Of a stretch of DNA of 64,000 nt, positions 12,001 through 64,000 are shown one piece after another (the stretch's first letter is position 1; the number at the start of each line of letters is the position of its first letter). The notes beneath the pieces were generated by a model. That model was given only the letters and a program-made list of their open reading frames with translations. It searched no databases and had not been told where the DNA came from. This DNA comes from Yuukianura sp. NJ FZ-2021. Its lineage: Eukaryota. Location: the NCBI GenBank assembly GCA_046563655.1, contig JAJCTO010000011.1:62001-126000 (forward strand), given 5' to 3'. The translations under genes were made by a program, and so were the position numbers.

Positions 12001-15000
12001 ATGAACAGAAAGTAAATTACATTTTTGAAATCCTCATAAAAAGTGCAACAGGAACCCACTTTCACTTGCTGTGTCGTCTATCATCTTGTTACCTTTATTT
12101 ATGAAAATTCATGTTTCAAAACAAAAAATTCAAAAGAAATGCATTCCGGAACGATGCTGGGTAAAAGCCAACTATATTTTTGAAATCCTCATAAAAAGTG
12201 CTACAGGAACCCACTTTCACTTGCTGTGGCGTCCATCATCTTGTTACCTTTATTATGAAAATCCATGTTTCAAAACAAAAAATTCAAAAGAAATGCATTC
12301 CGGAACAATGCTGGGTAAAAGTCAACTATATTTTTGGAATCCTCATAAAAAGTGCTACAGGAACCCACGTTCAGTTGCTGTGTCGTCCCTCATCTCGTGA
12401 CCCTTTTTTTATGAAAATTTGTTTCAAAACAAATCAATCGAAAAACCTCCACGCGAAGCGATGCCGGGCGAAAATGAGTTACTTTTCTGAAATCCTGCTG
12501 AAAAGTACTACAGGAACCAAAGTTTAATTGGCGTGGATAGATTGCAATTAAATCTGGTTAGAGCGTACTTAAAAGTCTGAATGAAACGCTCAACTTCGGA
12601 TTTTATCTCGGGTTGGAATACGGCACCCAGGGCAATGTCGAGCACCATTTTGACACAAAACGACTTAAATTTGTGAGAGTGAACATGCAAATGTGAGAAT
12701 GAACAGAAAGTAAATTACATTTTTGAAATCCTCATAAAAAGTGCTACAGGAACCCACTTTCACTTGCTGTGTCGTCCATCATCTTGTTACCTTTATTTAT
12801 GAAAATTCATGTTTCAAAACAAAAAATTCAAAAGAAATGCATTCCGGAACGATGCTGGGTAAAAGTCAACTATACTTTTGAAATCCTCATAAAAAGTGCT
12901 ACAGGAACCCACTTTCACTTGCTGTGTCGTCCATCACCTTGTTACCTTTATTTATGAAAATCCATGTTTCAAAACAAAGAATTCAAAAGAAATGCATTCC
13001 GGAACGATGCTTGGGTAAAAGTCAACTATATTTTTGGAATCCTCATAAAAAGTGCTACAGGAACCCACGTTCAGTTGCTGTGTCGTCCCTCATCTCGTGA
13101 CCCTTTTTTTATGAAAATTTGTTTCAAAACAAATCAATCGAAAAACCTCCACGCGGAGCGATGCCGGGCAAAAATGAGTTACTTTTCTGAAATCCTCCTG
13201 AAAAGTACTACAGGAACCAAAGTTTAATTGGCGTGGATAGATCGCAATTAAATCTGGTTAGAGCGTACTTAAAAGTCTGAATGAACCGCTCAACCTCGGA
13301 TTTTATCTCGGGTTGGAATACGGCACCCAGGGCAATGTCGAGCACCATTTTGACACAAAACGACTTAAATTTGTGAGAGTGAACAAGCAAATGTGAGAAT
13401 GAACAGAAAGTAAATTACATTTTTGAAATCCTCATAAAAAGTGCAACAGGAACCCACTTTCACTTGCTGTGTCGTCTATCATCTTGTTACCTTTATTTAT
13501 GAAAATTCATGTTTCAAAACAAAAAATTCAAAAGAAATACATTCCAGAACGATGCTGGGTAAAAGTCAACTATATTATTGAAATCCTCATAAAAGGTGCT
13601 ACAGGAACCCACTTTCATTTGCTGTGTCGTCCATCACCTTGTTACCTTTATTTATGAAAATCCATGTTTCAAAACAAAGAATTCAAAAGAAATGCATTCC
13701 GGAACGATGCTTGGGTAAAAGTCAACTATATTTTTGGAATCCTCATAAAAAGTGCTACAGGAACCCACGTTCAGTTGCTGTGTCGTCCCTCATCTCGTGA
13801 CCCTTTTTTTATGAAAATTTGTTTCAAAACAAATCAATCGAAAAACCTCCACGCGGAGCGATGCCGGGCAAAAATGAGTTACTTTTCTGAAATCCTCCTG
13901 AAAAGTACTACAGGAACCAAAGTTTAATTGGCGTGGATAGATCGCAATTAAATCTGGTTAGAGCGTACTTAAAAGTCTGAATGAACCGCTCAACCTCGGA
14001 TTTTATCTCGGGTTGGAATACGGCACCCAGGGCAATGTCGAGCACCATTTTGACACAAAACGACTTAAATTTGTGAGAGTGAACAAGCAAATGTGAGAAT
14101 GAACAGAAAGTAAATTACATTTTTGAAATCCTCATAAAAAGTGCAACAGGAACCCACTTTCACTTGCTGTGTCGTCTATCATCTTGTTACCTTTATTTAT
14201 GAAAATTCATGTTTCAAAAGAAAAAATTCAAAAGAAATGCATTCCGGAACGATGCTGGGTAAAAGCCAACTATATTTTTGAAATCCTCATAAAAAGTGCT
14301 ACAGGAACCCACTTTCACTTGCTGTGGCGTCCATCATCTTGTTACCTTTATTATGAAAATCCATGTTTCAAAACAAAAAATTCAAAAGAAATGCATTCCG
14401 GAACAATGCTGGGTAAAAGTCAACTATATTTTTGGAATCCTCATAAAAAGTGCTACAGGAACCCACGTTCAGTTGCTGTGTCGTCCCTCATCTCGTGACC
14501 CTTTTTTTATGAAAATTTGTTTCAAAACAAATCAATTGAAAAACCGCCACGAGGAGCGATGACGGGCGAAAATGAGTAACTTTTCTGAAATCCTCCTGAA
14601 AAGTACTACAGGTACGCACGTTCAGTTGCTGTGTCGTCCCTCATCTCGTTACCCTTTATTTATGAAAATTTGTGTCGAAACAAATCATTCAAAAAAACCT
14701 CCACGCGGAGCGATGCCGGGTGAAAATGAGTAACTTTTCTGAAATCCTCCTGAAAAGTACTACAGGAACCCAAGTTTAATTGGCGTGGATAGATTGCAAT
14801 TAAATCTGGTTAGAGCGTACTTAAAAGTCTGAATGAAACGCTCAACTTCGGATTTTATCTCGGGTTGGAATACGGCACCCAGGGCAATGTCGAGCACCAT
14901 TTTGATACAAAACGACTTAAATTTGTGAGAGTGAACATGCAAATGTGAGAATGAACAGAAAGTAAATTACATTTTTGAAATCCTCATAAAAAGTGCTACA

Positions 15001-15369
15001 GGAACCCACTTTCACTTGCTGTGTCGTCCATCATCTTGTTACCTTTATTTATGAAAATCCATGTTTCAAAACAAAGAATTCAAAAGAAATGCATTCCGGA
15101 ACGATGCTGGGTAAAAGTCAACTATATTTTTGAAATCCTCATAAAAAGTGCTACAGGAACCCACTTTCACTTGCTGTGTCGTCCATCATCTTGTTACCTT
15201 TATTTATGAAAATCCATGTTTCAAAACAAAGAATTCAAAAGAAATGCATTCCGGAACGATGCTTAGGTAAAAGTCAACTATATTTTTGGAATCCTCATAA
15301 AAAGTGCTACAGGAACCCACGTTCAGTTGCTGTGTCGTCCCTCATCTCGTGACCCTTTTTTTATGAAAA
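1..15369 (+). repeat. Composite satellite array, left arm (monomers A ~155 bp, B/B' ~153-154 bp, C 236 bp; higher-order units ~544/700/852 bp)
   Basis: Monomer starts at the shared motif ...ctacaGGAACC fall at 142 (B, 153 bp), 295 (C, 236 bp), 531 (A, 155 bp) and 686. C-to-C spacings are 700, 544, 700, 700, 852, 544 and so on. The array ends part-way through a B monomer at ...ttatgaaaa|ggacg (15369/15370). Confidence 0.98.
4736..4829. mobile_element. 94-bp non-autonomous DNA transposon (MITE), Transib-like, inserted in a satellite monomer
   Basis: 34-bp TIRs with 1 mismatch (CACGTTGGGAAATAGGAGAGAAAAAGGCGACAAG 4736-4769; inverse 4796-4829). The 5-bp direct repeat CCACG lies at 4731-4735 and 4830-4834. 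The empty site ggaacCCACGttcagt is present in other B monomers. Confidence 0.9.
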
Positions 15370-15417
15370 GGACGTTTTCGATTATTACGGGTAAATTGGG
15401 CCCTCTTGAATCTGGGG

Positions 15418-15512
15418 AAGGACTACTGGCCACATCACAAAAATTTCACAGTAGATCAACCATGGCCTTAGCAAGTAAGGGCCGAAATTTCGTGATGTGG
15501 CCAGGAGTCCTT
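15418..15512. mobile_element. Short inverted-repeat element (MITE-like), ~29-bp arms
   Basis: aaggactactggccacatcacaaaaatttc ... gaaatttcgtgatgtggccaggagtcctt. The arms are near-perfect reverse complements. No clear TSD. Confidence 0.6.
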
Positions 15513-15650
15513 GTATATGAATTTGGCCATTGCCTCTTGGCACTTTCACCGCAAAAGTTGCACTTTCGCTAAAAATCTTAAGAAATGCCTAGTCAACGTT
15601 TGTTGCTTTGTATATTTTATGTTGAAATAACAAACTGAAGTCGCCAAAGT

Positions 15651-16190
15651 TTGGAATTGTACTGCACGCAAAACCGAAAAGTGGAATTTGTGCAGGAGAA
15701 AGACCAAAAAGTGTTATTTGTGCAGGAGAAAAACCAAAAGTGTTATTTGTGCAGCATAAAAACTGAAAAGCGGTCAATTGTGCATCTCTTAAAACTAAAT
15801 AATTTGAAATTGTGCAACATCAGAAACTAAAAACATTGCACTTTATACAATATAAAAACGCAAAAGTATGCAGGTGCATCATGCCGATAACCGAAAAGGA
15901 GGGACGATTCGTGTTAAAAATAGAAAAGGTTTAAAGTTTGCAGTGCACAAATTCAAAAATTTGAAATTGTGCAATGTCCAAAACTGGAAACCTGCGAATT
16001 GTTCAGTCCGTCAACCAAAAGTTTAAGTGTGCAGCTTAAAAAAACCTAAAAGTGGTACTTGTGCAATATAACAACCCGAAATGTGGTACATGGTGCAATG
16101 TAAAAACCCGAAAAGTGGAATATGTGCAATGTAAAAACCCGAAAAATGGAATTTGTGCAACTCAAAACCCAGAAGGTGGTAATTGCGCAA
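15651..16190 (+). repeat. Degenerate ~30-31-bp minisatellite (approximate consensus GTGCAnnnnAAAACCnAAAAGTGGnATTT)
   Basis: GTGCA recurs every ~30 bp, e.g. gtgcaggagaaagaccaaaaagtgttattt, gtgcaggagaaaaaccaaaagtgttattt, gtgcaatgtaaaaacccgaaaagtggaatat, gtgcaatgtaaaaacccgaaaaatggaattt. Confidence 0.8.
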
Positions 16191-16278
16191 TTTAGAAATA
16201 CAAAATTTTTAATTTACACATGGCCCAATGCAAATCAATGCTTTTGCATTCAGTTTTGGCCCAGAGATCGAAACTGTC

Positions 16279-16445
16279 CTTTAGGAAACAACTTGATCTA
16301 GTACCCTGTCGGAGAAAAATTACACAATTTTAGTTCTAACCTTGAAAAAAATTAACCCAAACATCCCACCTCCATATTTACATAGACAGAACTAAAATTT
16401 TGTAGTTTTCTCCGACAGGGTACTAGATCAAGTCTTTTCCTAAAG
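16279..16445. repeat. Inverted repeat with ~58-bp arms and ~50-bp spacer (MITE-like)
   Basis: ctttaggaaacaacttgatctagtaccctgtcggagaaaaattacacaattttagttct (16279-16337) pairs with agaactaaaattttgtagttttctccgacagggtactagatcaagtcttttcctaaag (16388-16445). Confidence 0.8.
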
Positions 16446-16920
16446 TTTGATATATTGTGGGTCACTGTACGACATTCCTACGCTGACCTAGACCATTTCA
16501 ATGTCACAGTTTCACAAAAGTTTTTTACAATACCCAAACGACGGCAACCGAACTTTAGTCAGTATTTCGTTTGAAAGTGCCCACTTTTTTTATCTACTTT
16601 GCACTGAACGTTTTTCGCCACTTTCGAGTGTGTTTCTTTTTGTCGATGTCTGCAACTTTTACTAACTGCACAAGTTCGGTTATCGTGGTTACTAAATTTA
16701 ACGACAATTGTTTATTAGACGCATAACACACGTCCTTAACTCGACATTTCGGCTGATTAGAAAACTTTACGTAACTCCGTAACACCGCTTCCTTCCTCCA
16801 CTTTTTATTCCTTACTTCAACCAATTCAATTTCAAAGTTTCTTCGATTTTTGAAAAAAATTGAGACTAGCAGTATTTTGTTCAATTTTTTTTTTAAAATG
16901 CACCAACTTTATTTGGTTGT

Positions 16921-17680
16921 CATCTGCGCCTAACCAAAGTGCGCCTCTCCAATATGCGCCTCTCAATATGCGCCTAAAAAATGTGCGCCTCCATCCAAAG
17001 TGCGCCTACAGCCAAAGTGCGCCTCCATCAATATGCGCCTAAAAAATGTGCGCCTCCATCCAAAGTGCGCCTACAGCCAAAGTGCGCCTCCAATCAAACA
17101 GTGCCCTCAGATCCAATTAAAAACCAATAATAACACTAACGAAACCTCAGCAGAAACCCTCCAGAAGTAATCAGTATTTCGAACTTTAAACAAACGTAAC
17201 TTACCCAATCTAAACCCTGGAGACGTAATCAGTATTGCGAATTTAAAAACCTAACACCGCGCCTTCGGCGCGGAAACTCCTGGATTGTGGATAACTACCC
17301 TTGTTGGACAACTCCAACTTGTAATTGAATTAAACCAAATATACGCTGAATCTATACTTTTCCGTTCCCGTGCCATTCTACGCAAAAACTTTGTGGTAGG
17401 CCACCATAGCAACGTCGTGAATTAGCGAAAGCGCTAAATAAAAAATAGAACAGGAAGGCCTACGACAAAGCTTTTGCATGGAATGGCACGGGAACGGAAA
17501 AGTATAGATTCAGCGATACCTGGTATTTAATTGGAGCTGGAGGCGCATTTTGGCTTGGGGCGCATCTTGGATGGAGGAGCATATTTTCAAAGCGCATATT
17601 GATGGAGGCCCATTTTGGCTGGAGGCGCACTTTGGATGGAGGCGCATATTGGAGAGGCGCACTTTGGTTAGGCGCTGATG
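16921..17680. mobile_element. Foldback-type non-autonomous element with long modular TIRs made of ~15-17-bp TGCGCCT sub-repeats
   Basis: Left arm catctgcgcctaaccaaagtgcgcctctccaatatgcgcc... (~11 TGCGCCT cores) is mirrored by the right arm ...ggcgcatattggagaggcgcactttggttaggcgctgatg. The inner ends also match (tccaattaaaaacca / tggtatttaattgga). Both flanks contain (G)GTTG, a possible TSD. Confidence 0.85.
17344..17515. mobile_element. MITE nested in the foldback element; 59-bp TIRs, 3-bp ATA TSD
   Basis: cgctgaatctatacttttccgttcccgtgccattctacgcaaaaactttgtggtaggcc versus the inverse of ggcctacgacaaagcttttgcatggaatggcacgggaacggaaaagtatagattcagcg (4 mismatches). ATA at 17341-17343 and 17516-17518. 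Confidence 0.88.
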
Positions 17681-17840
17681 GGTTGCTGTTGCTACTTGCT
17701 ACGCTTTATTTTGTGCTTTTGAACATCTTAAGGTGAATGCTACTTTTTAACAATAGAAAAAGTTCTCCGAGTCGAGCTATGTTCAGGTTTGAACAAATCA
17801 GCGATCTGAAGTTGGAAAGTGAATATAAATAAAACAAAAA

Positions 17841-18340
17841 TTAATTTCTGGAGATTTTCTCCAGAAATTTGTGGAGAGTGGATTCGATTCGATTGTACTT
17901 TGACTCCATTTCGTCAGTGGAGCTGGGATCTGTTGTGGTATAAGTTGAGGCTGTGGAACAGTCGCTAAACTTCCGACTTAGGTCGAATGTTCCAGAGGTG
18001 ACTGTGATTGTGCTGGAGCGAACTCTCCTATTGTCCACCGAAGATCTCTTTCTGTGACCACAAATGTGGGAGAGCGTACACAACTGGAAGCAGAAGAGCA
18101 CATGCGCAAAGCGTCAACCGATTTCCAAACGACGGACAAAACTTGCTTCTCTGACTTCCTATCTCCAGCGCATCTTGTTCTGAAACAGGTGAAAATGCTA
18201 ATAATGATTTTTTTTTTATAAAAACTTACTATCATCTACGTAAGGAGAGATGTCTGTCCGGGGCTGGCTAAAGGTCGGATTTGTCTGACTCCTCTGATTT
18301 CTTTGAGTGGGTGCACGCAGACTGAGACTGAGTTGCTATT
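17841..18340 (-). pseudogene. Possible degraded spliced gene fragment (one 50-nt GT-AG intron), product unknown
   Basis: Minus strand 18229-18180 reads GTAAGTTTT...TTTTCACCTGTTTCAG: strong donor, AT-rich body, pyrimidine tract and CAG, flanked by more GC-rich sequence. No continuous recognisable ORF. Confidence 0.3.
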
Positions 18341-18358
18341 TCTATCCTATTAGTTCGA

Positions 18359-18392
18359 GCGCCGCCGGTAGGCGGCGCCACGGATTGCCTAG
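18359..18392 (+). mobile_element. Helitron-type 3' terminus (GC hairpin + CTAG)
   Basis: GCGCCGCC-GGTA-GGCGGCGC perfect 8-bp stem at 18359-18378, a 10-nt spacer, then CTAG (18389-18392) followed by T. This is the canonical Helitron 3' end geometry. The 5' TC end was not located. Confidence 0.7.
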
Positions 18393-19102
18393 TTTGATAT
18401 AATGCGATGGATTTACCGCGCTGGCGCTCTAGGAGCAACGATAGCTTTTTGAATTACCCCTTTAGCTGCCTGCATGTGTTTGGCTTGCAAGTGAAAATGA
18501 TGAAGATCCAGAGACCTGGCAAGGCATTTATGATATCAAACGGAATGAAGGTGTCTTATAGCGGTTTATTTGAACTGTAAACTTCCACAATCCAGCTGAT
18601 GATCTGGAAAATCATAATACGCCCGTTACAATGAAAATCGTCATGAAGAGCACAAACCTAAAAAAATCAAATCAGAATTGGTATCGAACTAATTACAAGT
18701 GCAGAATGTTGCTTGATACTGCAATTCCTGGTAGTATTTTGGTTGAAATTTTTCAAGTGTAGCGCGCGCTAGTAGGTCTGTTGAGCCTACTTCTAGTCGC
18801 CTCTCTGTGCAACAACCCCGCAGTCCCTGTGACCGAAACTGAGATTTCCTCTACAGGGAAATCTGCAGTTCAGGTCAACTCTTCTCTTCAGGAAGATTTG
18901 ACCTGAGGTCAACAATGCTAGGTTCTCCTGTTGAGCCAACATCAACTGAGAAATGAAATGGTCGTGACAACAACAGTGAACTAATGGAATAGACTTTTAT
19001 TTAGGTGTTCACTTGTTGAAGGTTGGGAAGAGACTCCCGTACAGAAAATATGAAAAGAATAATGTTTCTGTAACCTGTGCTAGAACATAAACTCCTACTC
19101 CT

Positions 19103-19384
19103 CTACCTATCCCTACCTACTCGGTTTAGGCCGGAGTTCCGAATCCGTCCGTCGTCGGTCCCTCTCAGCTTCATATTGCGCCCGGGAAATACGCCTCCAT
19201 CAGCGCCATCCTCATGCGCGGTCCTCCGACCTCGACAAGCGGACAAAATCTTCGTCTTCTTCTCGCCTCGTTTCCACTCGACACGTCTGGAATTCCTGGA
19301 TGAGCATGCAGAATTCCTAGATGAACGTGCAGAATTCTCAGATGATCGTTTTTTCTTAATTTTCTCCCGTCTTTTCACGTTCAT
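19103..19384 (-). CDS. Putative 93-aa basic Arg/Lys/Ser-rich protein (MNVKRREKIKKKRSSENSARSSRNSACSSRNSRR...)
   Basis: ATG in aaaATG context. TATATAAA lies 44 nt upstream, with an Inr-like GCATTT 30 nt downstream of the TATA, and AATAAA lies ~100 nt after the stop (18996-19001, minus strand). About 30% K+R. No recognised homolog. Confidence 0.35.
   Translation of the reverse strand: MNVKRREKIKKKRSSENSARSSRNSACSSRNSRRVEWKRGEKKTKILSACRGRRTAHEDGADGGVFPGRNMKLRGTDDGRIRNSGLNRVGRDR
19290..19346 (+). repeat. 21-bp tandem repeat x~3
   Basis: gaattcctggatgagcatgca / gaattcctagatgaacgtgca / gaattctcagatgat. It encodes the 7-aa SS(R/E)NSA(R/C) repeat on the minus strand. Confidence 0.8.
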
Positions 19385-19394
19385 TTTATGAGTC

Positions 19395-19428
19395 AAATGC
19401 GTTCTTTTTTCTGGATGTTTTTTATATA
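19395..19428 (-). promoter_or_regulatory. TATA box + initiator-like core promoter
   Basis: Minus-strand TATATAAA at 19428-19421. GCATTT has its A at 19398, 30 nt from the first T of the TATA box, the canonical TATA-Inr spacing. Confidence 0.45.
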
Positions 19429-19896
19429 GCACGGGTAATGAGAATTGGGTTAGCATGTGTATGTTTATTGGGGGGAGCAGTCACCTATAATTAGGTGACT
19501 GACTCACGCTGAGCATACGCTTATGGTATATTTCAGACCTAACCCTTTAGAAACAGCGTTATTTTTTGTCCTTTATGAGCAAATACACATTATGGTAATC
19601 TGAATGCTATCATCCTACGGAGGTCGTCCGTATCCCGATAAGCAAATCAGATTGAATGAGTATTTTTTGCTTAATGGACTGCTTCAAGGAGTAGTGACCG
19701 GCAACCACCACCCTTCCCCCCCCCCCTAGTTGGCCAAGGCCACCCCCCACCTTCCTTCCGTCGGATACCCCATCCTCAGTATTCTCCCCTCCCCCTGTCA
19801 CTATGCCCCCTCCCCCCCTGACTGGCTCTTCCTACACACAAGTATGAGATTAATAACTCAAACGTTTACCCCAGACTCGGCCTGCCCCCCAGAATG

Positions 19897-20662
19897 TCAA
19901 GGTCGCGCCAATCCTTTAACCCCCCAAGGTCACGGCACATGTAATAGGGAAATGAACTTTCACCGGGATCCCGACATTGCCTTTATCAACACCTCCCCTT
20001 CGAGGTCACACGATTCCCTGCACCCCATTCTCAAGGTCACGTTTGGGAGAAAAGCTTTCACTACATGACTTGAACTTGACCCATCTCAAGGTCCCGTGAG
20101 CAAATGAAAAACAGTAGCTTTACCAAATGACTTTCACTTACCCCGAGATCAAGGAAGCAATTTTGAGGGTGCAGTGTAAACTCAAATGCAACCATTGGAC
20201 ATGCGCCCGTTATAGAACAACACTATACATGGTCGTAGCATATAAAAGTAAATGCAAATTCAAAATGTGACACTTGTATTGTGGGAATTGGTGGTAGGTG
20301 CATTTTCCGCGTTCCCTTCGCTTCCGTCACGCGTCCCTTTCTCCACGCACTGCTTTCTCTGACCAACAGACAATACCCCCACATTACCACATGATTACAC
20401 ATGTACACATTACACATAACACATGATTTTTTTTTTTTAAAAAAAATCAATTTTTGAAAAAAAAATCAATTTTTGAAAAAAAAAAGAATTTTTTCTGCCA
20501 CTTCCATTAGCTGTGGTTTTGATAACTGGGAAAGCCAAGAAGGGTGGGCGGGACAACTCAAATAGGTCAAAGGTCAAATATCCGAGTGACACTACGCCGG
20601 GGGGCGTGGCAAGCCTCAGTCTTTGGCCAGTCAGTCTTTAGCATTTCAATGGGGGGCGTGGC
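19897..20662 (+). promoter_or_regulatory. Cluster of nuclear-receptor half-sites (YCAAGGTCR, perfect DR1 AGGTCAaAGGTCA) and GC boxes
   Basis: tcaaggtcg 19897, ccaaggtca 19924, cgaggtca 20001, tcaaggtca 20031, tcaaggtcc 20086, aggtcaaaggtca 20564-20576. GC boxes: ggggggcgtggc at ~20599 and ~20651, gggcggg at ~20546. Confidence 0.45.
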
Positions 20663-20672
20663 CAAAGGAAAT

Positions 20673-21109
20673 TGTTAGGATGGCAATAATTTAGAAGTTA
20701 GATTAGACTATGTTAAATTTCTGTTCTAGAGTTTTTCTTTTAAAGGTAAAAATTAGACGATAAATTAGGGCCACCGACCATTAGGTTAAGAAATATTTGT
20801 TAACAGTATTGGAACAATAGGTTCAGCTTAGTTTTCTGCTCTTGTCAATTTGAGACATAATTTGAGTGGGAAACCAAAAAGTCGTCCGCGTCCTGTGTGA
20901 GTGTGTGTGGCGTGGTTCCTTTGTTTTTTAGTAATAATAAGAAGTAAGGTTTTAGAGCTAGGAGAGAATAGGTGTGGGAAGTATTGTCCTCTTAGCATTT
21001 AATTGAATAGAAGAATAAATTAACAAGAAATCAACCCTTTTTCGATCACGTCCTTCCAAATTCAGTGTTCCGGTAGTCAACGGGTAGTCGACTACGACCG
21101 AGCCTAACA
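20673..21109 (+). repeat. 5' LTR (437 bp)
   Basis: Bounded by the perfect 7-bp inverted termini TGTTAGG...CCTAACA. AATAAA at 21014-21019. Immediately followed by a PBS. Confidence 0.85.
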
Positions 21110-21112
21110 TTT

Positions 21113-21131
21113 TGGTGACCCTGGCCGGACT
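21113..21131 (+). promoter_or_regulatory. Primer-binding site TGGTGACCCTGGCCGGACT
   Basis: Begins with TGG 3 nt after the LTR end. The reverse complement AGT-CCGGC-CAGGGTC-A-CCA has the layout of a tRNA 3' end (T-loop, T-stem, acceptor strand, discriminator, CCA). Confidence 0.75.
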
Positions 21132-21342
21132 GCAGTGTTCGAGAAAGGTCAAGAAGGAAGTACTGGACGATTCATCCGTGCCGTGTGGAGGAACTAGTAT
21201 CAATTGATTTACGTCCTGCCACTTTGTGGGCCCCACCCTGAGCATTCGGGGGTGGATAAGGTGAAAACGTTCCAGCTTAAGCTTAATTTGAATCGAATTA
21301 ATCGGATTTTTCCGTTCTCTTGAGTCTTCCAACAGCTGATAA

Positions 21343-21552
21343 ATGGATCGAGTCAAGAAAGAAAGAAAGGTGGTTCGTAGCACGGTCACGAAGATCACGA
21401 ATGAAGTGGATCGAGAACTAGCCAAGGACGAGGTTAGCACAACCATCCTTCAAGCGAAGTTCACCCGGCTGGATCAACTTCATCATGACATTCAACGTTT
21501 GGATCGTGAAGTGCTGTATGGTCTGCTGGATAGTGAAGCGGATGACGAGACG
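21343..21552 (+). pseudogene. gag: Truncated gag N-terminus (BEL/Pao-like), 70 codons
   Basis: MDRVKKERKVVRSTVTKITNEVDRELAKDEVSTTILQAKFTRLDQLHHDIQRLDREVLYGLLDSEADDET is the helical basic-then-acidic N-terminus typical of BEL/Pao Gag, and it lies downstream of the LTR/PBS. The remainder of the called ORF is satellite read-through. Confidence 0.75.
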
Positions 21553-24500
21553 TTCAGGAGGATTTCAGAAAAGTTACTCATTTTCGCCCGGCATCGCTCC
21601 GCGTGGAGGTTTTTCGATTGATTTGTTTTGAAACAAATTTTCATAAGAAAAAGGGTCACGAGATGAGGGACGACACAGCAAATGAACGTGAGTTCCTGTA
21701 GCACTTTTTATGAGGATTCCAAAAATATAGTTGACTTTTACCCAGCATCGTTCCGGAATGCATTTCTTTTGAATTCTTTGTTTTGAAACATGGATTTTCA
21801 TAAATAAAGGTAACAAGATGATGGACGACACAGCAAGTGAAAGTGGGTTCCTGCACTTTTTATGAGGATTTCAAAAGTATAGTTGACTTTTACCCAGCAT
21901 CGTTTCGGAATGCATTTCTTTTGAATTTTCTGTTTTGAAACATGAATTTTCATAAATAAAGGTAACAAGATGATGGACGACACAGCAAGTGAAAGTGGGT
22001 TCCTGTAGCACTTTTTATGAGGATTTCAAAAATGTAATTTACTTTCTGTTCATTCTCACATTTGCATGTTCACTCCCACAAATTTAAGCCGTTTTGTGTC
22101 AAAATGGTGCTCGACATTGCCCTGGGTGCCGTATTCCAACCCAAGATAAAATCCGAGGTTGAGCGTTTCATTCAGACTTTTAAGTACGCTCTAACCAGAT
22201 TTAATTGCGATCTATCCACGCCAATTAAACTTGGGTTCCTGTAGTACTTTTCAGGAGGATTTCAGAAAAGTTACTCATTTTCACCCGGCAGCGCTCCGCG
22301 TGGAGGTTTTTTGAATGATTTGTTTCGACAAATTTTCATAAATAAAGGGTCACGAGATGAGGGACGACACAGCAAATGAACGTGGGTTCCTGTAGTACTT
22401 TTCAGGAGGATTTCAAAAAAGTAACTCATTTTCGCCCGTCATCGCTCCGCGTGGAGGTTTTTCGATTGATTTGTTTTGAAACAAATTTTCATAAAAAAAG
22501 GGTCACGAGATGAGGGACGACACAGCAACTGAACGTGGGTTCCTGTAGCACTTTTTATGAGGATTCCAAAAATATAGTTGACTTTTACCCAGCATCGTTC
22601 CGGAATGCATTTCTTTTGAATTCTTTGTTTTGAAACATGGATTTTCATAAATAAAGGTAACAAGATGATGGACGACACAGCAAGTGAAAGTGGGTTCCTG
22701 CACTTTTTATGAGGATTTCAAAAGTATAGTTGACTTTTACCCAGCATCGTTTCGGAATGCATTTCTTTTGAATTCTTTGTTTTGAAACATGGATTTTCAT
22801 AAATAAAGGTAACAAGATGATGGACGACACAGCAAGTGAAAGCGGGTTCCTGTAGCACTTTTTATGAGGATTTCAAAAATGTAATTTACTTTCTGTTCAT
22901 TCTCACATTTGCATGTTCACTCCCACAAATTTAAGTCGTTTTGTGTCAAAATGGTGCTCGACATTGCCCTGGGTGCCGTATTCCAACCCAAGATAAAATC
23001 CGAGGTTGAGCGTTTCATTCAGACTTTTAAGTACGCTCTAACCAGATTTAATTGCGATCTATCCACGCCAATTAAACTTGGGTTCCTGTAGTACTTTTCA
23101 GGAGGATTTCAGAAAAGTTACTCATTTTCACCCGGCAGCGCTCCGCGTGGAGGTTTTTCGATTGATTTGTTTTGAAACAAATTTTCATAAAAAAAAGGGT
23201 CACGAGATGAGGGACGACACAGCAAATGAACGTGAGTTCCTGTAGCACTTTTTATGAGGATTCCAAAAATATAGTTGACTTTTACCCAGCATCGTTCCGG
23301 AATGCATTTCTTTTGAATTCTTTGTTTTGAAACATGGATTTTCATAAATAAAGGTAACAAGATGATGGACGACACAGCAAGTGAAAGTGGGTTCCTGCAC
23401 TTTTTATGAGGATTTCAAAAGTATAGTTGACTTTTACCCAGCATCGTTTCGGAATGCATTTCTTTTGAATTTTCTGTTTTGAAACATGAATTTTCATAAA
23501 TAAAGGTAACACGATGATGGACGACACAGCAAGTGAAAGTGGGTTCCTGTAGCACTTTTTATGAGGATTTCAAAAATGTAATTTACTTTCTGTTCATTCT
23601 CACATTTGCATGTTCACTCCCACAAATTTAAGTCGTTTTGTGTCAAAATGGTGCTCGACATTGCCCTGGGTGCCGTATTCCAACCCAAGATAAAATCCGA
23701 GGTTGAGCGTTTCATTCAGACTTTTAAGTACGCTCTAACCAGATTTAATTGCGATCTATCCACGCCAATTAAACTTGGGTTCCTGTAGTACTTTTCAGGA
23801 GGATTTCAGAAAAGTTACTCATTTTCACCCGGCATCGCTCCGCGTGGAGGTTTTTTTGAATGATTTGTTTCGACAAATTTTCATAAATAAAGGGTCACGA
23901 GATGAGGGACGACACAGCAAATGAACGTGGGTTCCTGTAGTACTTTTCAGGAGGATTTCAAAAAAGTAACTCATTTTCGCCCGTCATCGCTCCGCGTGGA
24001 GGTTTTTCGATTGATTTGTTTTGAAACAAATTTTCATAAAAAAAGGGTCACGAGATGAGGGACGACACAGCAACTGAACGTGGGTTCCTGTAGCACTTTT
24101 TATGAGGATTCCAAAAATATAGTTGACTTTTACCCAGCATCGTTCCGGAATGCATTTCTTTTGAATTCTTTGTTTTGAAACATGGATTTTCATAAATAAA
24201 GGTAACAAGATGATGGACGACACAGCAAGTGAAAGTGGGTTCCTGCACTTTTTATGAGGATTTCAAAAGTATAGTTGACTTTTACCCAGCATCGTTTCGG
24301 AATGCATTTCTTTTGAATTCTTTGTTTTGAAACATGGATTTTCATAAATAAAGGTAACAAGATGATGGACGACACAGCAAGTGAAAGCGGGTTCCTGTAG
24401 CACTTTTTATGAGGATTTCAAAAATGTAATTTACTTTCTGTTCATTCTCACATTTGCATGTTCACTCCCACAAATTTAAGTCGTTTTGTGTCAAAATGGT

Positions 24501-27500
24501 GCTCGACATTGCCCTGGGTGCCGTATTCCAACCCAAGATAAAATCCGAGGTTGAGCGTTTCATTCAGACTTTTAAGTACGCTCTAACCAGATTTAATTGC
24601 GATCTATCCACGCCAATTAAACTTGGGTTCCTGTAGTACTTTTCAGGAGGATTTCAGAAAAGTTACTCATTTTCACCCGGCATCGCTCCGCGTGGAGGTT
24701 TTTTTGAATGATTTGTTTCGACAAATTTTCATAAATAAAGGGTCACGAGATGAGGGACGACACAGCAAATGAACGTGGGTTCCTGTAGTACTTTTCAGGA
24801 GGATTTCAAAAAAGTAACTCATTTTCGCCCGTCATCGCTCCGCGTGGAGGTTTTTCGATTGATTTGTTTTGAAACAAATTTTCATAAAAAAAGGGTCACG
24901 AGATGAGGGACGACACAGCAACTGAACGTGGGTTCCTGTAGCACTTTTTATGAGGATTCCAAAAATATAGTTGACTTTTACCCAGCATCGTTCCGGAATG
25001 CATTTCTTTTGAATTCTTTGTTTTGAAACATGGATTTTCATAAATAAAGGTAACAAGATGATGGACGACACAGCAAGTGAAAGTGGGTTCCTGCACTTTT
25101 TATGAGGATTTCAAAAGTATAGTTGACTTTTACCCAGCATCGTTTCGGAATGCATTTCTTTTGAATTTTCTGTTTTGAAACATGAATTTTCATAAATAAA
25201 GGTAACACGATGATGGACGACACAGCAAGTGAAAGTGGGTTCCTGTAGCACTTTTTATGAGGATTTCAAAAATGTAATTTACTTTCTGTTCATTCTCACA
25301 TTTGCATGTTCACTCCCACAAATTTAAGTCGTTTTGTGTCAAAATGGTGCTCGACATTGCCCTGGGTGCCGTATTCCAACCCAAGATAAAATCCGAGGTT
25401 GAGCGTTTCATTCAGACTTTTAAGTACGCTCTAACCAGATTTAATTGCGATCTATCCACGCCAATTAAACTTGGGTTCCTGTAGTACTTTTCAGGAGGAT
25501 TTCAGAAAAGTTACTCATTTTCACCCGGCATCGCTCCGCGTGGAGGTTTTTTTGAATGATTTGTTTCGACAAATTTTCATAAATAAAGGGTCACGAGATG
25601 AGGGACGACACAGCAAATGAACGTGGGTTCCTGTAGTACTTTTCAGGAGGATTTCAAAAAAGTAACTCATTTTCGCCCGTCATCGCTCCGCGTGGAGGTT
25701 TTTCGATTGATTTGTTTTGAAACAAATTTTCATAAAAAAAGGGTCACGAGATGAGGGACGACACAGCAACTGAACGTGGGTTCCTGTAGCACTTTTTATG
25801 AGGATTCCAAAAATATAGTTGACTTTTACCCAGCATCGTTCCGGAATGCATTTCTTTTGAATTCTTTGTTTTGAAACATGGATTTTCATAAATAAAGGTA
25901 ACAAGATGATGGACGACACAGCAAGTGAAAGTGGGTTCCTGCACTTTTTATGAGGATTTCAAAAGTATAGTTGACTTTTACCCAGCATCGTTTCGGAATG
26001 CATTTCTTTTGAATTCTTTGTTTTGAAACATGGATTTTCATAAATAAAGGTAACAAGATGATGGACGACACAGCAAGTGAAAGCGGGTTCCTGTAGCACT
26101 TTTTATGAGGATTTCAAAAATGTAATTTACTTTCTGTTCATTCTCACATTTGCATGTTCACTCCCACAAATTTAAGTCGTTTTGTGTCAAAATGGTGCTC
26201 GACATTGCCCTGGGTGCCGTATTCCAACCCAAGATAAAATCCGAGGTTGAGCGTTTCATTCAGACTTTTAAGTACGCTCTAACCAGATTTAATTGCGATC
26301 TATCCACGCCAATTAAACTTGGGTTCCTGTAGTACTTTTCAGGAGGATTTCAGAAAAGTTACTCATTTTCACCCGGCATCGCTCCGCGTGGAGGTTTTTT
26401 CGAATGATTTGTTTCGACACAAATTTTCATAAATAAAGGGTCACGAGATGAGGGACGACACAGCAAATGAACGTGGGTTCCTGTAGTACTTTTCAGGAGG
26501 ATTTCAAAAAAGTAACTCATTTTCGCCCGTCATCGCTCCGCGTGGAGGTTTTTCGATTGATTTGTTTTGAAACAAATTTTCATAAAAAAAGGGTCACGAG
26601 ATGAGGGACGACACAGCAACTGAAAGTGGGTTCCTGTAGCACTTTTTATGAGGATTTCAATAATATAGTTGACTTTTACCCAGCATCGCTCCGGAATGCA
26701 TTTCTTTTGAATTCTTTGTTTTGAATCATGAATTTTCATAAATAAAGGTAACAAGATGATGGACGACACAGGAAGTGAAAGTGGGTTCCTGCACTTTTTA
26801 TGAGGATTTCAAAAGTATAGTTGACTTTTACCCAGCATCGTTTCGGAATGCATTTCTTTTGAATTCTTTGTTTTGAAACATGGATTTTCATAAATAAAGG
26901 TAACAAGATGATGGACGACACAGCAAGTGAAAGCGGGTTCCTGTAGCACTTTTTATGAGGATTTCAAAAATGTAATTTACTTTCTGTTCATTCTCACATT
27001 TGCATGTTCACTCCCACAAATTTAAGTCGTTTTGTGTCAAAATGGTGCTCGACATTGCCCTGGGTGCCGTATTCCAACCCAAGATAAAATCCGAGGTTGA
27101 GCGTTTCATTCAGACTTTTAAGTACGCTCTAACCAGATTTAATTGCGATCTATCCACGCCAACTAAACTTGGGTTCCTGTAGTACTTTTCAGGAGGATTT
27201 CAGAAAAGTAACTCGTTTTCATCAGGCATCTCTCCGCGTAGAGGTTTCTTTGAATGATTTGTTTCGACAAATTTTCATAAATAAAGGGTCACGAGATGAG
27301 GGACGACACAGCAAATGAACGTGGGTTCCTGTAGTACTTTTCAGGAGGATTTCAAAAAAGTAACTCATTTTCGCCCGGCATCGCTCCGCGTGGAGGTTTT
27401 TCGATTGATTTGTTTTGAAACAAATTTTCATAAAAAAAGGGTCACGAGATGAGGGACGACACAGCAACTGAACGTGGGTTCCTGTAGCACTTTTTATGAG

Positions 27501-63500: not shown

Positions 63501-64000
63501 TTTCAGGAGGATTTCAGAAAAGTTACTCATTTTCGCCCGGCATCGCTCCGCGTGGAGGTTTTTCGATTGATTTGTTTTGAAACAAATTTTCATAAAAAAA
63601 GGGTCACGAGATGAGGGACGACACAGCAAATGAACGTGAGTTCCTATAGCACTTTTCATGAGGATTCCAAAAATATAGTTGACTTTTACCCAGCATTGTT
63701 CCGGAATGCATTTCTTTTGAATTCTTTGTTTTGAAACATGGATTTTCATAAATAAAGGTAACAAGATGATTTACGACACAGCAAGTGAAAGTGGGTTTCT
63801 GTAGCACTTTTTATGAGGATTTCAAAAATGTAATTTACTTTCTGTTCATTGTCACATTTGCATGTTCATTCTCACAAATTTAAGTCGTTTTGCGTCAAAA
63901 TGGTGCTCGACATTGCCCTGGGTGGCGTATAGCAACCCAAGATAAAATCCGAGGCAGAGCGGTTCATTCAGACTTTTAAGTACGCTCTAACCAGATTTAA
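21553..64000 (-). repeat. Same composite satellite in inverted orientation, right arm (~56 higher-order units; 543, ~697, ~850 bp and rare odd lengths)
   Basis: Reverse complement of the left-arm monomers (e.g. gggttcctgtagcactttttatgaggatttcaaaa). Starts abruptly at gacgagacg|ttcaggaggatttcag and continues to the window end. Confidence 0.98.

What the first reader, a model, noticed from the sequence alone, without database searches (positions are those of the whole stretch)
15369..21553. Satellite polarity switch: two arrays converge on a 6.2-kb transposon island, forming a giant inverted repeat
Seen: the same satellite runs + on the left and - on the right. Both arms stop inside or at the end of a B monomer, and the spacer is almost all TE fragments. 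No TSD or shared TIR brackets the island, so it is not one simple insertion. Established: orientation switches in satellite arrays often coincide with TE insertions, and Drosophila centromeres form on retroelement-rich islands embedded in satellite. Inference: this is an inversion breakpoint and a candidate centromere or pericentromere island.
Basis: partly seen in the sequence, partly recalled or inferred. Interest (0 to 1): 0.75.

Follow-up and report, generated by a model that had tools for sequence, protein, structure and literature searches.

The report
Satellite strand switch at a junk island
One complex satellite repeat runs forward on the left and backward on the right of a 6.2-kb non-coding island that ends in a cut-off retrotransposon gene; this is a real but fairly ordinary rearrangement scar in repeat-rich DNA, and nothing in the sequence shows it is a centromere.

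Summary
The core observation holds at the stated coordinates. The same satellite is on the + strand at 1-15369 and on the - strand at 21553-64000, and 15370-21552 (6183 bp) has no satellite similarity. All 24 spacer elements on the left are +, and all 56 on the right are -.

The left arm breaks after base 88 of a 154-bp B monomer. The right arm breaks 20 nt past a complete B monomer and abuts codon 70 of a Bel/Pao gag reading frame. No target-site duplication or terminal repeat brackets the island. A 94-bp MITE at 4736-4829 does have a clean 5-bp duplication and serves as an internal control.

"Almost all TE fragments" could not be verified. About 27% of the island is structurally TE-like, and 0 of 91 ORFs carries a credible Pfam domain.

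The arms are not mirror copies. Units facing each other across the island are 96.0-97.6% identical, against 99-100% for within-arm best matches.

My best reading is an end-joined inversion-type breakpoint in a heterogeneous array. The inverted arms can now recombine. The centromere idea is untested and has no sequence support here. This is a known kind of feature, of low to moderate interest.

The parts
1..15369 (+). Left satellite arm. Units are S (199 bp) + A + (A) + B + (B) + a 33-37-nt truncated monomer, in classes of about 544, 700 and 850 bp. It runs off the window's left edge.
   Evidence: 24 of 24 S copies are +. A vs A2 monomers are 96.8% identical; A vs B are 83.2%.
4736..4829 (.). 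94-bp MITE inserted in a B monomer. It has perfect 25-nt terminal inverted repeats and a 5-bp target-site duplication, CCACG (4731-4735 and 4830-4834). It is an internal control for what a true insertion into this array looks like.
   Evidence: this is the only other stretch not covered by satellite. The monomer continues in phase and on the same strand on both sides.
15282..15369 (+). Last, truncated B monomer of the left arm (positions 1-88 of 154). The left junction is at 15369|15370.
15370..21552 (.). Non-satellite island, 6183 bp. GC 0.423 against 0.38 in the arms; CpG observed/expected 0.86.
   Evidence: Island vs satellite blastn gives only two hits, at E 0.10 and 0.36, which is chance level.
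15418..15512 (.). Hairpin with 28-nt arms (89% complementary) and a 39-nt loop. Nature unknown.
   Evidence: (I14)
15640..16198 (+). Degenerate 30-31-bp tandem repeat, 60-76% identity to the reference copy.
   Evidence: (D1, D2)
16279..16445 (.). 167-bp almost perfect palindrome: outer arms 40 nt at 95%, inner arms 33 nt at 79%. MITE-like. No clear TSD seen.
   Evidence: I8, I11. One search gives only sub-threshold miRNA-hairpin hits.
16921..17680 (.). 760-bp foldback-like element. It has 42-nt termini (98% complementary), long arms built of 17-bp subrepeats, and an inner 59-nt palindrome at 17344-17515. It is flanked by GGTTGT and GGTTGC.
   Evidence: (I1-I4, I7, I2)
17681..20893 (.). 3.2 kb of unassigned non-coding sequence. 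It includes a C-rich tract at about 19690-19830 and a T/A-rich short-repeat tract at 20423-20490.
   Evidence: no Pfam domain, and no homologue for the ORF at 17844-18113(-).
20894..21130 (+). Putative 5' LTR (TGT...ACA, ending at 21109) followed 3 nt later by a TGG-initiated primer-binding-site-like stretch (21113-21130). The LTR's 5' limit is a guess.
   Evidence: Read from the sequence. This is inference from recalled LTR/PBS conventions. There is no second LTR copy in the window to confirm it.
21343..21552 (+). N-terminal 70 codons of a Bel/Pao-type gag. The frame is open from the ATG and is cut by the satellite about 60 residues before the DUF1759 domain would begin.
   Evidence: 14 hits at E 1.9e-6 to 6.7e-4. 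Twelve align from their own residue 1; the two polyproteins (P0007, P0013) align from residues 89 and 1029; of the 8 hits scanned, 4 carry DUF1759, and 2 of those also carry Peptidase_A17 and RVT_1; the fragment itself has no Pfam hit and no word-index hit.
21553..21726 (-). Right junction at 21552|21553. It is followed by 20 nt of the truncated monomer and one complete B monomer, on the reverse strand.
21553..64000 (-). Right satellite arm, running off the window's right edge. It has three domains by S-element identity to the left-arm reference: 21.5-28 kb (97.5-98%), 28.5-45 kb (mostly 94-95.5%) and 45-64 kb (94-100%, mostly 96.5-100%).
   Evidence: 56 of 56 S copies are -.

Best explanation
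This is a genuine strand switch, that is, a rearrangement breakpoint, inside a large heterogeneous array of a complex satellite in an animal genome. It has no function of its own.

Shown:
- One satellite family lies on opposite strands either side of a 6.2-kb non-coding island.
- Both junctions cut through the interior of a unit. One is inside a B monomer. The other is between a satellite monomer and codon 70 of a Bel/Pao gag.
- No target-site duplication is present.

Inferred:
- The junctions were made by double-strand breaks and non-homologous end joining. The most economical route is an inversion with one break in the array and one in a neighbouring cluster of decayed mobile elements.
- The reciprocal junction would then lie outside the window.
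- The array was already diversified into sub-families when this happened.
- Each arm has since been homogenised on its own by unequal exchange or segmental duplication. That process cannot cross an orientation switch.

Consequence (inferred): the arms are at least 15 kb and 42 kb long and share exact inverted matches of up to 331 bp. They are therefore a substrate for ectopic recombination that would flip the island or seed further inversions.
For: - Orientation and coordinates: 24 of 24 S copies +, 56 of 56 -; skew reversal.
- Exact junctions and monomer phase: and (left at B position 88 of 154; right at B + 20 nt).
- Right junction inside a retrotransposon gene. The ORF at 21343-21552 matches 14 proteins at E 1.9e-6 to 6.7e-4. 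Of the 8 I scanned, 4 carry DUF1759, and 2 of those also carry Peptidase_A17 and RVT_1.
- The sequence upstream of the putative LTR is not satellite. The element therefore did not insert into the array.
- A true insertion in the same array looks different. The 94-bp MITE at 4736-4829 has a 5-bp TSD and same-strand, in-phase flanks.
- It is not a mirror copy or a read-hairpin artefact. The facing pairs are 0.961 (L13920 vs R23079), 0.960 (L13220 vs R23776) and 0.976 (the two partial units). Each of these units has a within-arm partner at 0.983-0.998.
- 84 right-arm windows of 500 bp gave a full-length match to the left arm. They reach 93.2-99.0% to that arm, against 95.0-100% elsewhere in their own arm.
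- Sub-families are shared between arms. In the tree of 31 units of the 700-bp class, the left-arm units fall with the distal and proximal right-arm units (support 100/99), and the middle right-arm units fall outside.
- Recombination substrate: the longest exact inverted match is 331 bp, and 870 positions carry matches of 200 bp or more.
- Precedent (passages read): strand switches counted as inversion breakpoints in human satellite arrays, and enriched together with TEs in divergent alpha satellite (10.1101/2021.07.12.452052). Inverted satellite arrays mediating inversions in deer mice (10.1101/2024.05.29.596518).
Against: - Only one breakpoint region is visible, so the reciprocal junction that an inversion predicts cannot be checked.
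- A junction inside a TE could also come from a deletion.
- Going outward from the island, both arms show the same first three units: a partial A-A-B unit, then an 850-class unit, then a 700-class unit. This hints at an inverted duplication. By my estimate from the class frequencies, two matching full units in a row has a chance probability of about 0.05.
- Divergence between the arms does not date the event. Domains within the right arm differ from each other as much or more (RR minimum 0.903).
- The tree does not force the arms to be polyphyletic. The AU test does not reject a single left-arm clade (p = 0.363).
- No read-level evidence was available, so an assembly join cannot be excluded.
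- The nature of about 3.9 kb of the island is unknown.
Confidence: 0.55

Rival explanations
1. Assembly chimera: two real satellite loci, or two haplotypes, were wrongly joined through or next to the island.
For: Arrays whose units are 99-100% identical over tens of kb are a classic source of mis-joins. No read data could be consulted.
Against: Both junctions are satellite-to-unique sequence, and the island is only 6.2 kb of non-repeated DNA. Ordinary long reads would span it together with both flanks. The arms are not the same sequence assembled twice: the best cross-arm identity is 93.2-99.0%. A missed-adapter hairpin read would give a perfect palindrome with no spacer. The window holds no N.
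Confidence: 0.1
2. Fold-back inverted duplication. After a break, replication or repair copied the adjacent array backwards and left the island as the spacer. The arms later diverged.
For: The first three units outward from the island have the same architecture on both sides (partial AAB, 850 class, 700 class). The break points lie only 86 nt apart in the unit's register.
Against: Mirror partners are not each other's closest relatives. L13920 vs R23079 is 0.961, which ranks 15th of 25 right-arm units. L13220 vs R23776 is 0.960, which ranks 16th of 22. The architecture diverges from the fourth unit on, 700 against 848 bp. The island is asymmetric and ends inside a gag ORF, which this model does not explain. 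The architectural match has a chance probability of about 0.05 by my estimate.
Confidence: 0.1
3. Two arrays arose or expanded independently on either side of a pre-existing TE-rich spacer. For example, a mobile element carrying the repeat seeded each side in opposite orientations.
For: Satellites can be seeded from transposon-borne repeats (10.64898/2026.09.17.752431, passages). Each arm has its own dominant unit classes: 544 and 700 on the left, 850 and 700 on the right.
Against: The arms end at different internal positions of the unit and share no common non-satellite flank. Several unit sub-families and even 100%-identical S copies occur in both arms. A single-seed origin per arm would not predict this. 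The edge units are not decayed; their best within-arm matches are 0.992 and 0.996.
Confidence: 0.1
4. The island is functionally important: a centromere core, or a centromere-organising element like the retroelement islands of Drosophila or the 'centroids' of cichlids.
For: A non-satellite island sits exactly at a satellite strand switch, as cichlid centroids do (PMC13652916; abstract and section 7 read). Bel-Pao elements are reported among the transposons found within metazoan centromeric arrays (10.64898/2026.09.17.752431, passage). The monomer is about 155 bp, near nucleosome size.
Against: Nothing intrinsic supports it. The only retroelement coding remnant is 70 codons long, and 0 of 91 ORFs has a credible domain. 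There is no RNA gene and no CENP-B-box match. At 6.2 kb the island is much smaller than the roughly 15-kb centroids. Recurrence on other chromosomes, CENP-A occupancy and chromosomal position are all unknown.
Confidence: 0.08

Closest known systems
Strand switches (inversion breakpoints) in human satellite arrays, T2T-CHM13 (10.1101/2021.07.12.452052; passages read)
   Same: One satellite family changes strand within an array. In human divergent alpha satellite, such switches and TE insertions are enriched together. Flank orientation is used there, as here, to tell inversions from insertions.
   Different: The organism and the satellite are different: here 155-bp A and B monomers plus a 199-bp S element in 544-, 700- and 850-bp units. 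Here a 6.2-kb non-satellite spacer sits at the switch, and one junction lies inside a Bel/Pao gag.
Cichlid 'centroids' (PMC13652916; abstract and section 7 read)
   Same: A non-satellite element lies between blocks of the centromeric satellite in opposite orientation. The element resembles non-autonomous DNA transposon material; here, foldback-like and MITE-like pieces lie inside the island.
   Different: Centroids are about 15 kb. They recur as inverted pairs about 200 kb apart on most chromosomes, carry putative CENP-B boxes, and bracket a methylation dip. Here there is one 6.2-kb island, recurrence is unknown, there is no CENP-B-box match, and the right end is a truncated retrotransposon.
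Inverted centromeric satellite arrays as inversion substrates in deer mice (10.1101/2024.05.29.596518; passages read)
   Same: Highly similar satellite arrays lie in inverted orientation on one chromosome and can recombine ectopically.
   Different: The deer-mouse arrays are over 100 kb and megabases apart. Here the arms are 6.2 kb apart, so recombination would flip only the island. No polymorphism data exist for this locus.
Retroelement islands of Drosophila centromeres (PMC6516634; search listing only; details recalled)
   Same: Complex, TE-bearing DNA is embedded in satellite.
   Different: As I recall, the Drosophila islands are about 100 kb or more, rich in intact or recent non-LTR elements, and occupied by CENP-A. 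Here the island is 6.2 kb, almost entirely non-coding, and has only a 70-codon gag remnant.
Ordinary TE insertion into a satellite monomer
   Same: The 94-bp MITE at 4736-4829 in the same array is a textbook case, with a TSD and in-phase flanks.
   Different: The island fails every criterion for an insertion. It has no TSD, its flanks are on opposite strands and 86 nt out of register, and one end lies inside a TE gene.

Membership tests
Satellite-array strand switch / inversion breakpoint | The same satellite family lies on both sides | tested here: met
   the same S, A and B components occur on both sides. Cross-arm unit identity averages 0.957-0.965.
Satellite-array strand switch / inversion breakpoint | Opposite strand on the two sides, consistently | tested here: met
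   24 of 24 S copies + on the left, 56 of 56 - on the right..
Satellite-array strand switch / inversion breakpoint | A reciprocal second breakpoint exists elsewhere on the chromosome | not testable with these tools
   Both arms run off the 64-kb window, and no eukaryotic assembly was available.
Satellite-array strand switch / inversion breakpoint | The junctions are supported by spanning reads, so they are not an assembly join | not testable with these tools
   No read data. Indirect evidence only: unique junctions, a 6.2-kb spacer, and arms that are not identical.
Simple or nested TE insertion into a continuous array | Target-site duplication, with flanks co-oriented and in monomer phase | tested here: not met
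   the flanks are on opposite strands. The left ends at B position 88 and the right at B + 20 nt. There is no TSD. Positive control: the MITE at 4736-4829.
Palindrome / fold-back inverted duplication | The arms are collinear mirror copies and mirror partners are each other's nearest relatives | tested here: not met
   the architecture mirrors for three units only; mirror pairs are 0.960-0.976 and rank mid-table among cross-arm comparisons; their best within-arm partners are 0.983-0.998.
Bel/Pao LTR retrotransposon (the fragment at the right end of the island) | A gag homologous to that of DUF1759-bearing Pao polyproteins | tested here: met
   14 hits at E 1.9e-6 to 6.7e-4; 4 of 8 scanned hits carry DUF1759, and 2 of those also carry Peptidase_A17 and RVT_1. 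The fragment itself stops before the DUF1759 region and has no Pfam hit.
Bel/Pao LTR retrotransposon (the fragment at the right end of the island) | Two LTRs, a PBS, and protease, RT and integrase | tested here: not met
   There is no second LTR copy and no pol domain in 91 ORFs. Only a 5' fragment is present. The LTR and PBS are read from the sequence by recalled conventions.
Centromere core island (Drosophila type) | CENP-A/CenH3 occupancy | not testable with these tools
   Needs ChIP or CUT&Tag.
Centromere core island (Drosophila type) | The island is rich in retroelements | tested here: not met
   0 of 91 ORFs of 40 aa or more has a credible Pfam domain. The only retroelement coding remnant is 70 codons long.
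Cichlid-type centroid | A recurrent element, paired in inverted orientation, on many chromosomes | not testable with these tools
   Only one window is available, and there is no second copy of any island segment in it.
Cichlid-type centroid | Putative CENP-B boxes | tested here: not met
   0 matches to the recalled consensus TTCGNNNNANNCGGG in 64 kb.

The most novel reading that the evidence does not exclude
The island is not a random scar but a recurrent organiser of the array, an invertebrate counterpart of the cichlid 'centroid'. On this reading, a foldback- and MITE-bearing non-satellite element marks where the centromeric satellite changes strand. The inverted arms let it flip by ectopic recombination. 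It could then delimit the kinetochore-forming domain and generate inversion polymorphism. Nothing here excludes this. Recurrence, CENP-A occupancy and population orientation are all untested.
Probability: 0.06. Interest if true: 0.7.

Novelty: new member of a known kind. Interest (0 to 1): 0.27.

Why it matters
If the junctions are real, the locus gives base-pair-resolved breakpoints of a rearrangement inside a satellite array. One break is inside a monomer and one is inside a retrotransposon gag. It also shows that the two arms were homogenised separately afterwards.

That makes it a small, usable case for studying how orientation switches block array-wide homogenisation, and how inverted arrays prime further inversions. 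It can also serve as an anchor of unique sequence for assembling, genotyping or FISH-mapping an otherwise featureless array.

It does not by itself say anything about centromere identity.

Tried and rejected
- Pfam on the 12 longest island ORFs and on all 91 stop-to-stop ORFs of 40 aa or more. Nothing reached a curated cut-off. The best was Meleagrin at E 0.0083, 16.4 bits against a cut-off of 25, which I treat as chance.
- Word-index protein search of the gag fragment against longer proteins, and of ORF 17844-18113(-). No hits.
- ESM Atlas on ORF 17844-18113(-). No usable hit.
- Rfam at E up to 1 on 12500-23500. Only sub-threshold miRNA-like matches to the palindromes. Rfam at gathering thresholds on the whole window gave 0, and ARAGORN gave 0. 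The S element is therefore not detectably tRNA-, rRNA- or snRNA-derived, although by eye it looked vaguely tRNA-like.
- Full-text search for a 20-nt satellite string. 0 papers, so I could not tie the satellite to a published family.
Names and sources of the gag relatives therefore stayed unchecked.
- A recent large duplication in the left arm as a dating tool. The long diagonals are only 97.7-98.5% identical, so I drew no timing inference.
- Arm divergence as a clock. Rejected, because domains within the right arm differ as much or more.
- CENP-B box. 0 matches.
- The YCAAGGTCV motif. 4 matches, which is not more than chance in number (27 of 100 shuffles reach 4), though all four lie within 200 bp.
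- No eukaryotic DNA collection or TE library was available. The copy number and TE identity of the island's segments stayed unchecked.

Full report
**What is there**

The window is almost entirely one complex satellite. Tandem Repeats Finder reports 152-156-bp periods across the window. The consensus units to the right of about 21.6 kb are the reverse complement of those on the left.

A blastn self-map with a 1.4-kb satellite query gives + strand hits only at 1-4735 and 4830-15369, and - strand hits only at 21553-64000. It leaves 4736-4829 and 15370-21552 uncovered. The window has no N.

The repeat is built from three components:
- a 199-bp element I call S;
- 155-bp A monomers (two A copies are 96.8% identical);
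- 154-bp B monomers (83.2% identical to A).

A truncated 33-37-nt monomer precedes each S. Units come in three main classes:
- about 544 bp: S-A-B;
- about 700 bp: S-A-A-B;
- about 850 bp: S-A-A-B-B.

There are a few odd units of 236, 715, 738, 796 and 1005 bp.

All 24 S copies left of the island are +, and all 56 on the right are -. AT and GC skew reverse across the island, and GC rises from about 0.38 to 0.40-0.48 within it.

**The junctions**

I aligned both junctions with intact reference units.
- On the left, satellite homology ends exactly at 15369, after position 88 of a 154-nt B monomer.
- On the right, it begins exactly at 21553. Read in satellite orientation, this is a complete B monomer plus 20 nt of the truncated monomer.

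In the unit's register the two breaks are 86 nt apart. The flanks are on opposite strands.

No direct repeat flanks the island. The only inverted pair that touches its edges is the satellite itself (I5). The island's own blastn self-map shows no match between its two ends.

A useful internal control lies in the left arm. The other uncovered stretch, 4736-4829, is a 94-bp MITE. It has perfect 25-nt terminal inverted repeats and a 5-bp duplication (CCACG), and the B monomer continues in phase and on the same strand on both sides. A real insertion into this array looks like that, and the island does not.

**What the island is made of**

The island is 6183 bp and has no similarity to the satellite. 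The only two hits are at E 0.10 and 0.36. The recognisable pieces are:
- a hairpin at 15418-15512;
- a degenerate 30-31-bp tandem repeat at about 15640-16198;
- a 167-bp near-perfect palindrome at 16279-16445;
- a 760-bp foldback-like element at 16921-17680. It has 42-nt termini (98% complementary), arms made of 17-bp subrepeats, an inner 59-nt palindrome, and flanks GGTTGT and GGTTGC;
- at the right end, an ORF that opens with ATG at 21343 and runs uninterrupted to the junction, 70 codons in all.

That ORF has no Pfam hit of its own and no word-index hit. An exhaustive phmmer search of 1.84 billion representatives found 14 proteins at E 1.9e-6 to 6.7e-4, with 29-56% identity. Twelve of them align from their own residue 1. 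The two polyproteins (P0007, P0013) align from residues 89 and 1029.

I scanned 8 of the 14 with Pfam. Four carry DUF1759, which begins about 105 to 133 residues in, or about 128 residues after the aligned stretch in P0007. Two of those four are full polyproteins with the Pao peptidase A17 and reverse transcriptase domains. The ORF is therefore the N-terminus of a Bel/Pao-type gag, cut about 60 residues before its DUF1759 region.

Upstream, a TGT...ACA stretch ends at 21109 and is followed 3 nt later by a TGG-initiated tract. This looks like a 5' LTR plus primer-binding site. That reading rests on recalled conventions, and the LTR's 5' limit is a guess.

I could not assign the rest:
- 0 of 91 stop-to-stop ORFs of 40 aa or more has a credible Pfam domain.
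- The most gene-like ORF, 17844-18113 on the - strand, has no relatives.
- There are no RNA genes.

Structurally TE-like pieces thus add up to about 1.7 kb (27%), and the minisatellite to another 0.56 kb. 'Almost all TE fragments' may well be true, but it needs a TE library and genome-wide copy numbers, which I did not have.

**Are the arms a true inverted repeat?**

They are inverted in orientation only. I cut both arms into S-to-S units and compared units of the same class.
- The units facing each other across the island are 0.961 (L13920 vs R23079) and 0.960 (L13220 vs R23776). The two partial edge units are 0.976.
- These values rank mid-table among cross-arm comparisons: 15th of 25 and 16th of 22.
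- Each of these units has a within-arm partner at 0.983-0.998.
- The 84 right-arm windows of 500 bp that gave a full-length match reach 93.2-99.0% to the left arm, against 95.0-100% elsewhere in their own arm.

The arms are therefore not mirror copies. They are also not the same sequence assembled twice, and not a hairpin-read artefact.

The edge units are not decayed. Their best within-arm matches are 0.992 and 0.996.

Going outward, both arms begin with the same three unit types: a partial A-A-B unit, then 850, then 700. They then differ, 700 against 848. From the class frequencies, I estimate about 0.05 for two full units matching by chance. This is a weak hint of a fold-back origin, and the sequence comparison does not back it.

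**History of the array**

By S-element identity the right arm has three domains:
- a proximal one (21.5-28 kb);
- a divergent middle one (28.5-45 kb);
- a distal one (45-64 kb).

The distal domain resembles the left arm most. It shares the 544- and 700-bp unit classes, and its unit identities to the left arm reach 0.98.

In an ML tree of the 31 units of the 700-bp class:
- the left-arm units group with the distal and proximal right-arm units (support 100/99);
- the middle right-arm units fall outside;
- 7 of the 9 left-arm units form a clade (95/93);
- the AU test does not reject a single left-arm clade (p = 0.363).

A tree of the first 354 nt of 79 units needs 5 L/R changes, but its branches are weakly supported. 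S copies 100% identical to the left-arm reference occur in the right arm at 37602-37800 and 60649-60847.

I read this as follows. The array was already diversified when the arms were separated, or the arms still exchange by conversion. Since then, each arm has been homogenised mainly within itself. Because right-arm domains differ from each other as much as the arms do (RR minimum 0.903), arm divergence cannot date the switch.

**Mechanism**

The right junction joins the interior of a retrotransposon gene to the interior of a satellite unit. The left junction joins the interior of a B monomer to unrelated sequence. The sequence upstream of the putative LTR is not satellite, so the retrotransposon did not insert into the array. 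Together with the missing TSD and the opposite strands, this points to breakage and non-homologous joining.

The most economical route is an inversion with one break in the array and one in an adjacent cluster of decayed mobile elements. This step is inferred, because the reciprocal junction lies outside the window. Deletion-plus-inversion and more complex repair are not excluded.

The present structure has a predictable consequence. The arms share exact inverted matches of up to 331 bp, and 870 positions carry matches of 200 bp or more. Ectopic recombination between them could therefore invert the island or seed larger inversions. Recombination of this kind between inverted satellite arrays has been proposed for deer mice (10.1101/2024.05.29.596518, passages).

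**Comparison with what is known**

- Strand switches in satellite arrays are counted as inversion breakpoints in the human T2T analysis. They are enriched together with TEs in divergent alpha satellite, and flank orientation is used there to separate inversions from insertions (10.1101/2021.07.12.452052, passages).
- A recent atlas preprint states that satellite centromeres tend to keep one strand. It also lists Bel-Pao among the transposons found within metazoan centromeric arrays (10.64898/2026.09.17.752431, passages).
- The closest structured analogue is the cichlid 'centroid'. This is a non-satellite element of about 15 kb, resembling a non-autonomous DNA transposon. It is flanked by satellite blocks of opposite orientation, recurs in inverted pairs, and brackets the methylation dip (PMC13652916, abstract and section 7). 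The present island shares only the position at a strand switch and some foldback- and MITE-like content. Recurrence is unknown and no CENP-B-box match exists.
- I know the Drosophila retroelement islands (PMC6516634) here only from the search listing and from recall. They are much larger and retroelement-rich, and this island is neither.

**Organism**

I could not name it. Bel/Pao elements point to an animal (recalled knowledge). CpG observed/expected of 0.86-0.97 argues against a heavily CpG-methylated genome such as a vertebrate's. A 20-nt satellite string is in none of the searched papers.

**Verdict**

The 'rearrangement breakpoint' reading is supported. The 'transposon island' label is only partly verifiable. 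The centromere reading is untested speculation. This is a new example of a known kind of feature, and its interest is low to moderate.

Noticed in passing
window 4736-4829: A 94-bp MITE with perfect 25-nt terminal inverted repeats (CACGTTGGGAAATAGG...) and a 5-bp target-site duplication, CCACG. It is inserted in a B monomer of the left arm and is the only clean TE insertion in about 58 kb of satellite.
   Followed up: yes
window 5102-5609 (unit L05138, 236 bp): A unit with no full monomers. S is followed by only a 37-nt monomer stub and then the next S, which gives a local 236-bp period (97% matches, 2.2 copies).
   Followed up: partly
window 21553-64000: The right arm has three domains by S-element identity to the left-arm reference: 21.5-28 kb (97.5-98%), 28.5-45 kb (mostly 94-95.5%) and 45-64 kb (94-100%, mostly 96.5-100%). 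The distal domain is the one most like the left arm, both in sequence and in its 544- and 700-bp unit classes.
   Followed up: partly
window 37602-37800 and 60649-60847 vs 13220-13418: S copies in the - arm are 100% identical to an S copy in the + arm. At 37602-37800 the rest of the unit is of the divergent middle-domain type. This suggests mosaic units, either from conversion between inverted arms or from retained ancestral variants.
   Followed up: no
window 30423-31427, 32276-32990, 50901-51638: Odd-length units of 1005 bp (S-AAABB), 715 bp and 738 bp. The 738-bp unit contains a 40-bp tandem duplication at 50941-51017 (97% matches).
   Followed up: no
window 16921-17680: A foldback-like element whose long inverted arms are built of 17-bp subrepeats (GTGCGCCTCCATCCAAA-like) around an inner 59-nt palindrome. 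Elements of this architecture are known, from my recall, to promote rearrangements. Whether this one played a part in the strand switch is unknown.
   Followed up: partly
window 19897-20094: Four YCAAGGTCV motifs lie within 200 bp and there are none elsewhere in the 64 kb. The number is not above chance (27 of 100 shuffles reach 4), but the clustering suggests a degenerate tandem repeat of about 30-100 bp.
   Followed up: partly
whole window: There is no CpG depletion: observed/expected is 0.97 in the left arm, 0.86 in the island and 0.94 in the right arm. This argues for a host without heavy germline CpG methylation. A methylation-dip test for the centromere may therefore not be applicable.
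   Followed up: partly
window 1-4352 vs 9578-15329: A higher-order pattern of units (700-700-852 and their neighbours) recurs in the left arm at 97.7-98.5% identity over 1.8-3.7 kb. It runs to within 40 bp of the left junction, so the arm's edge is part of the regular array structure and not a decayed margin.
   Followed up: partly
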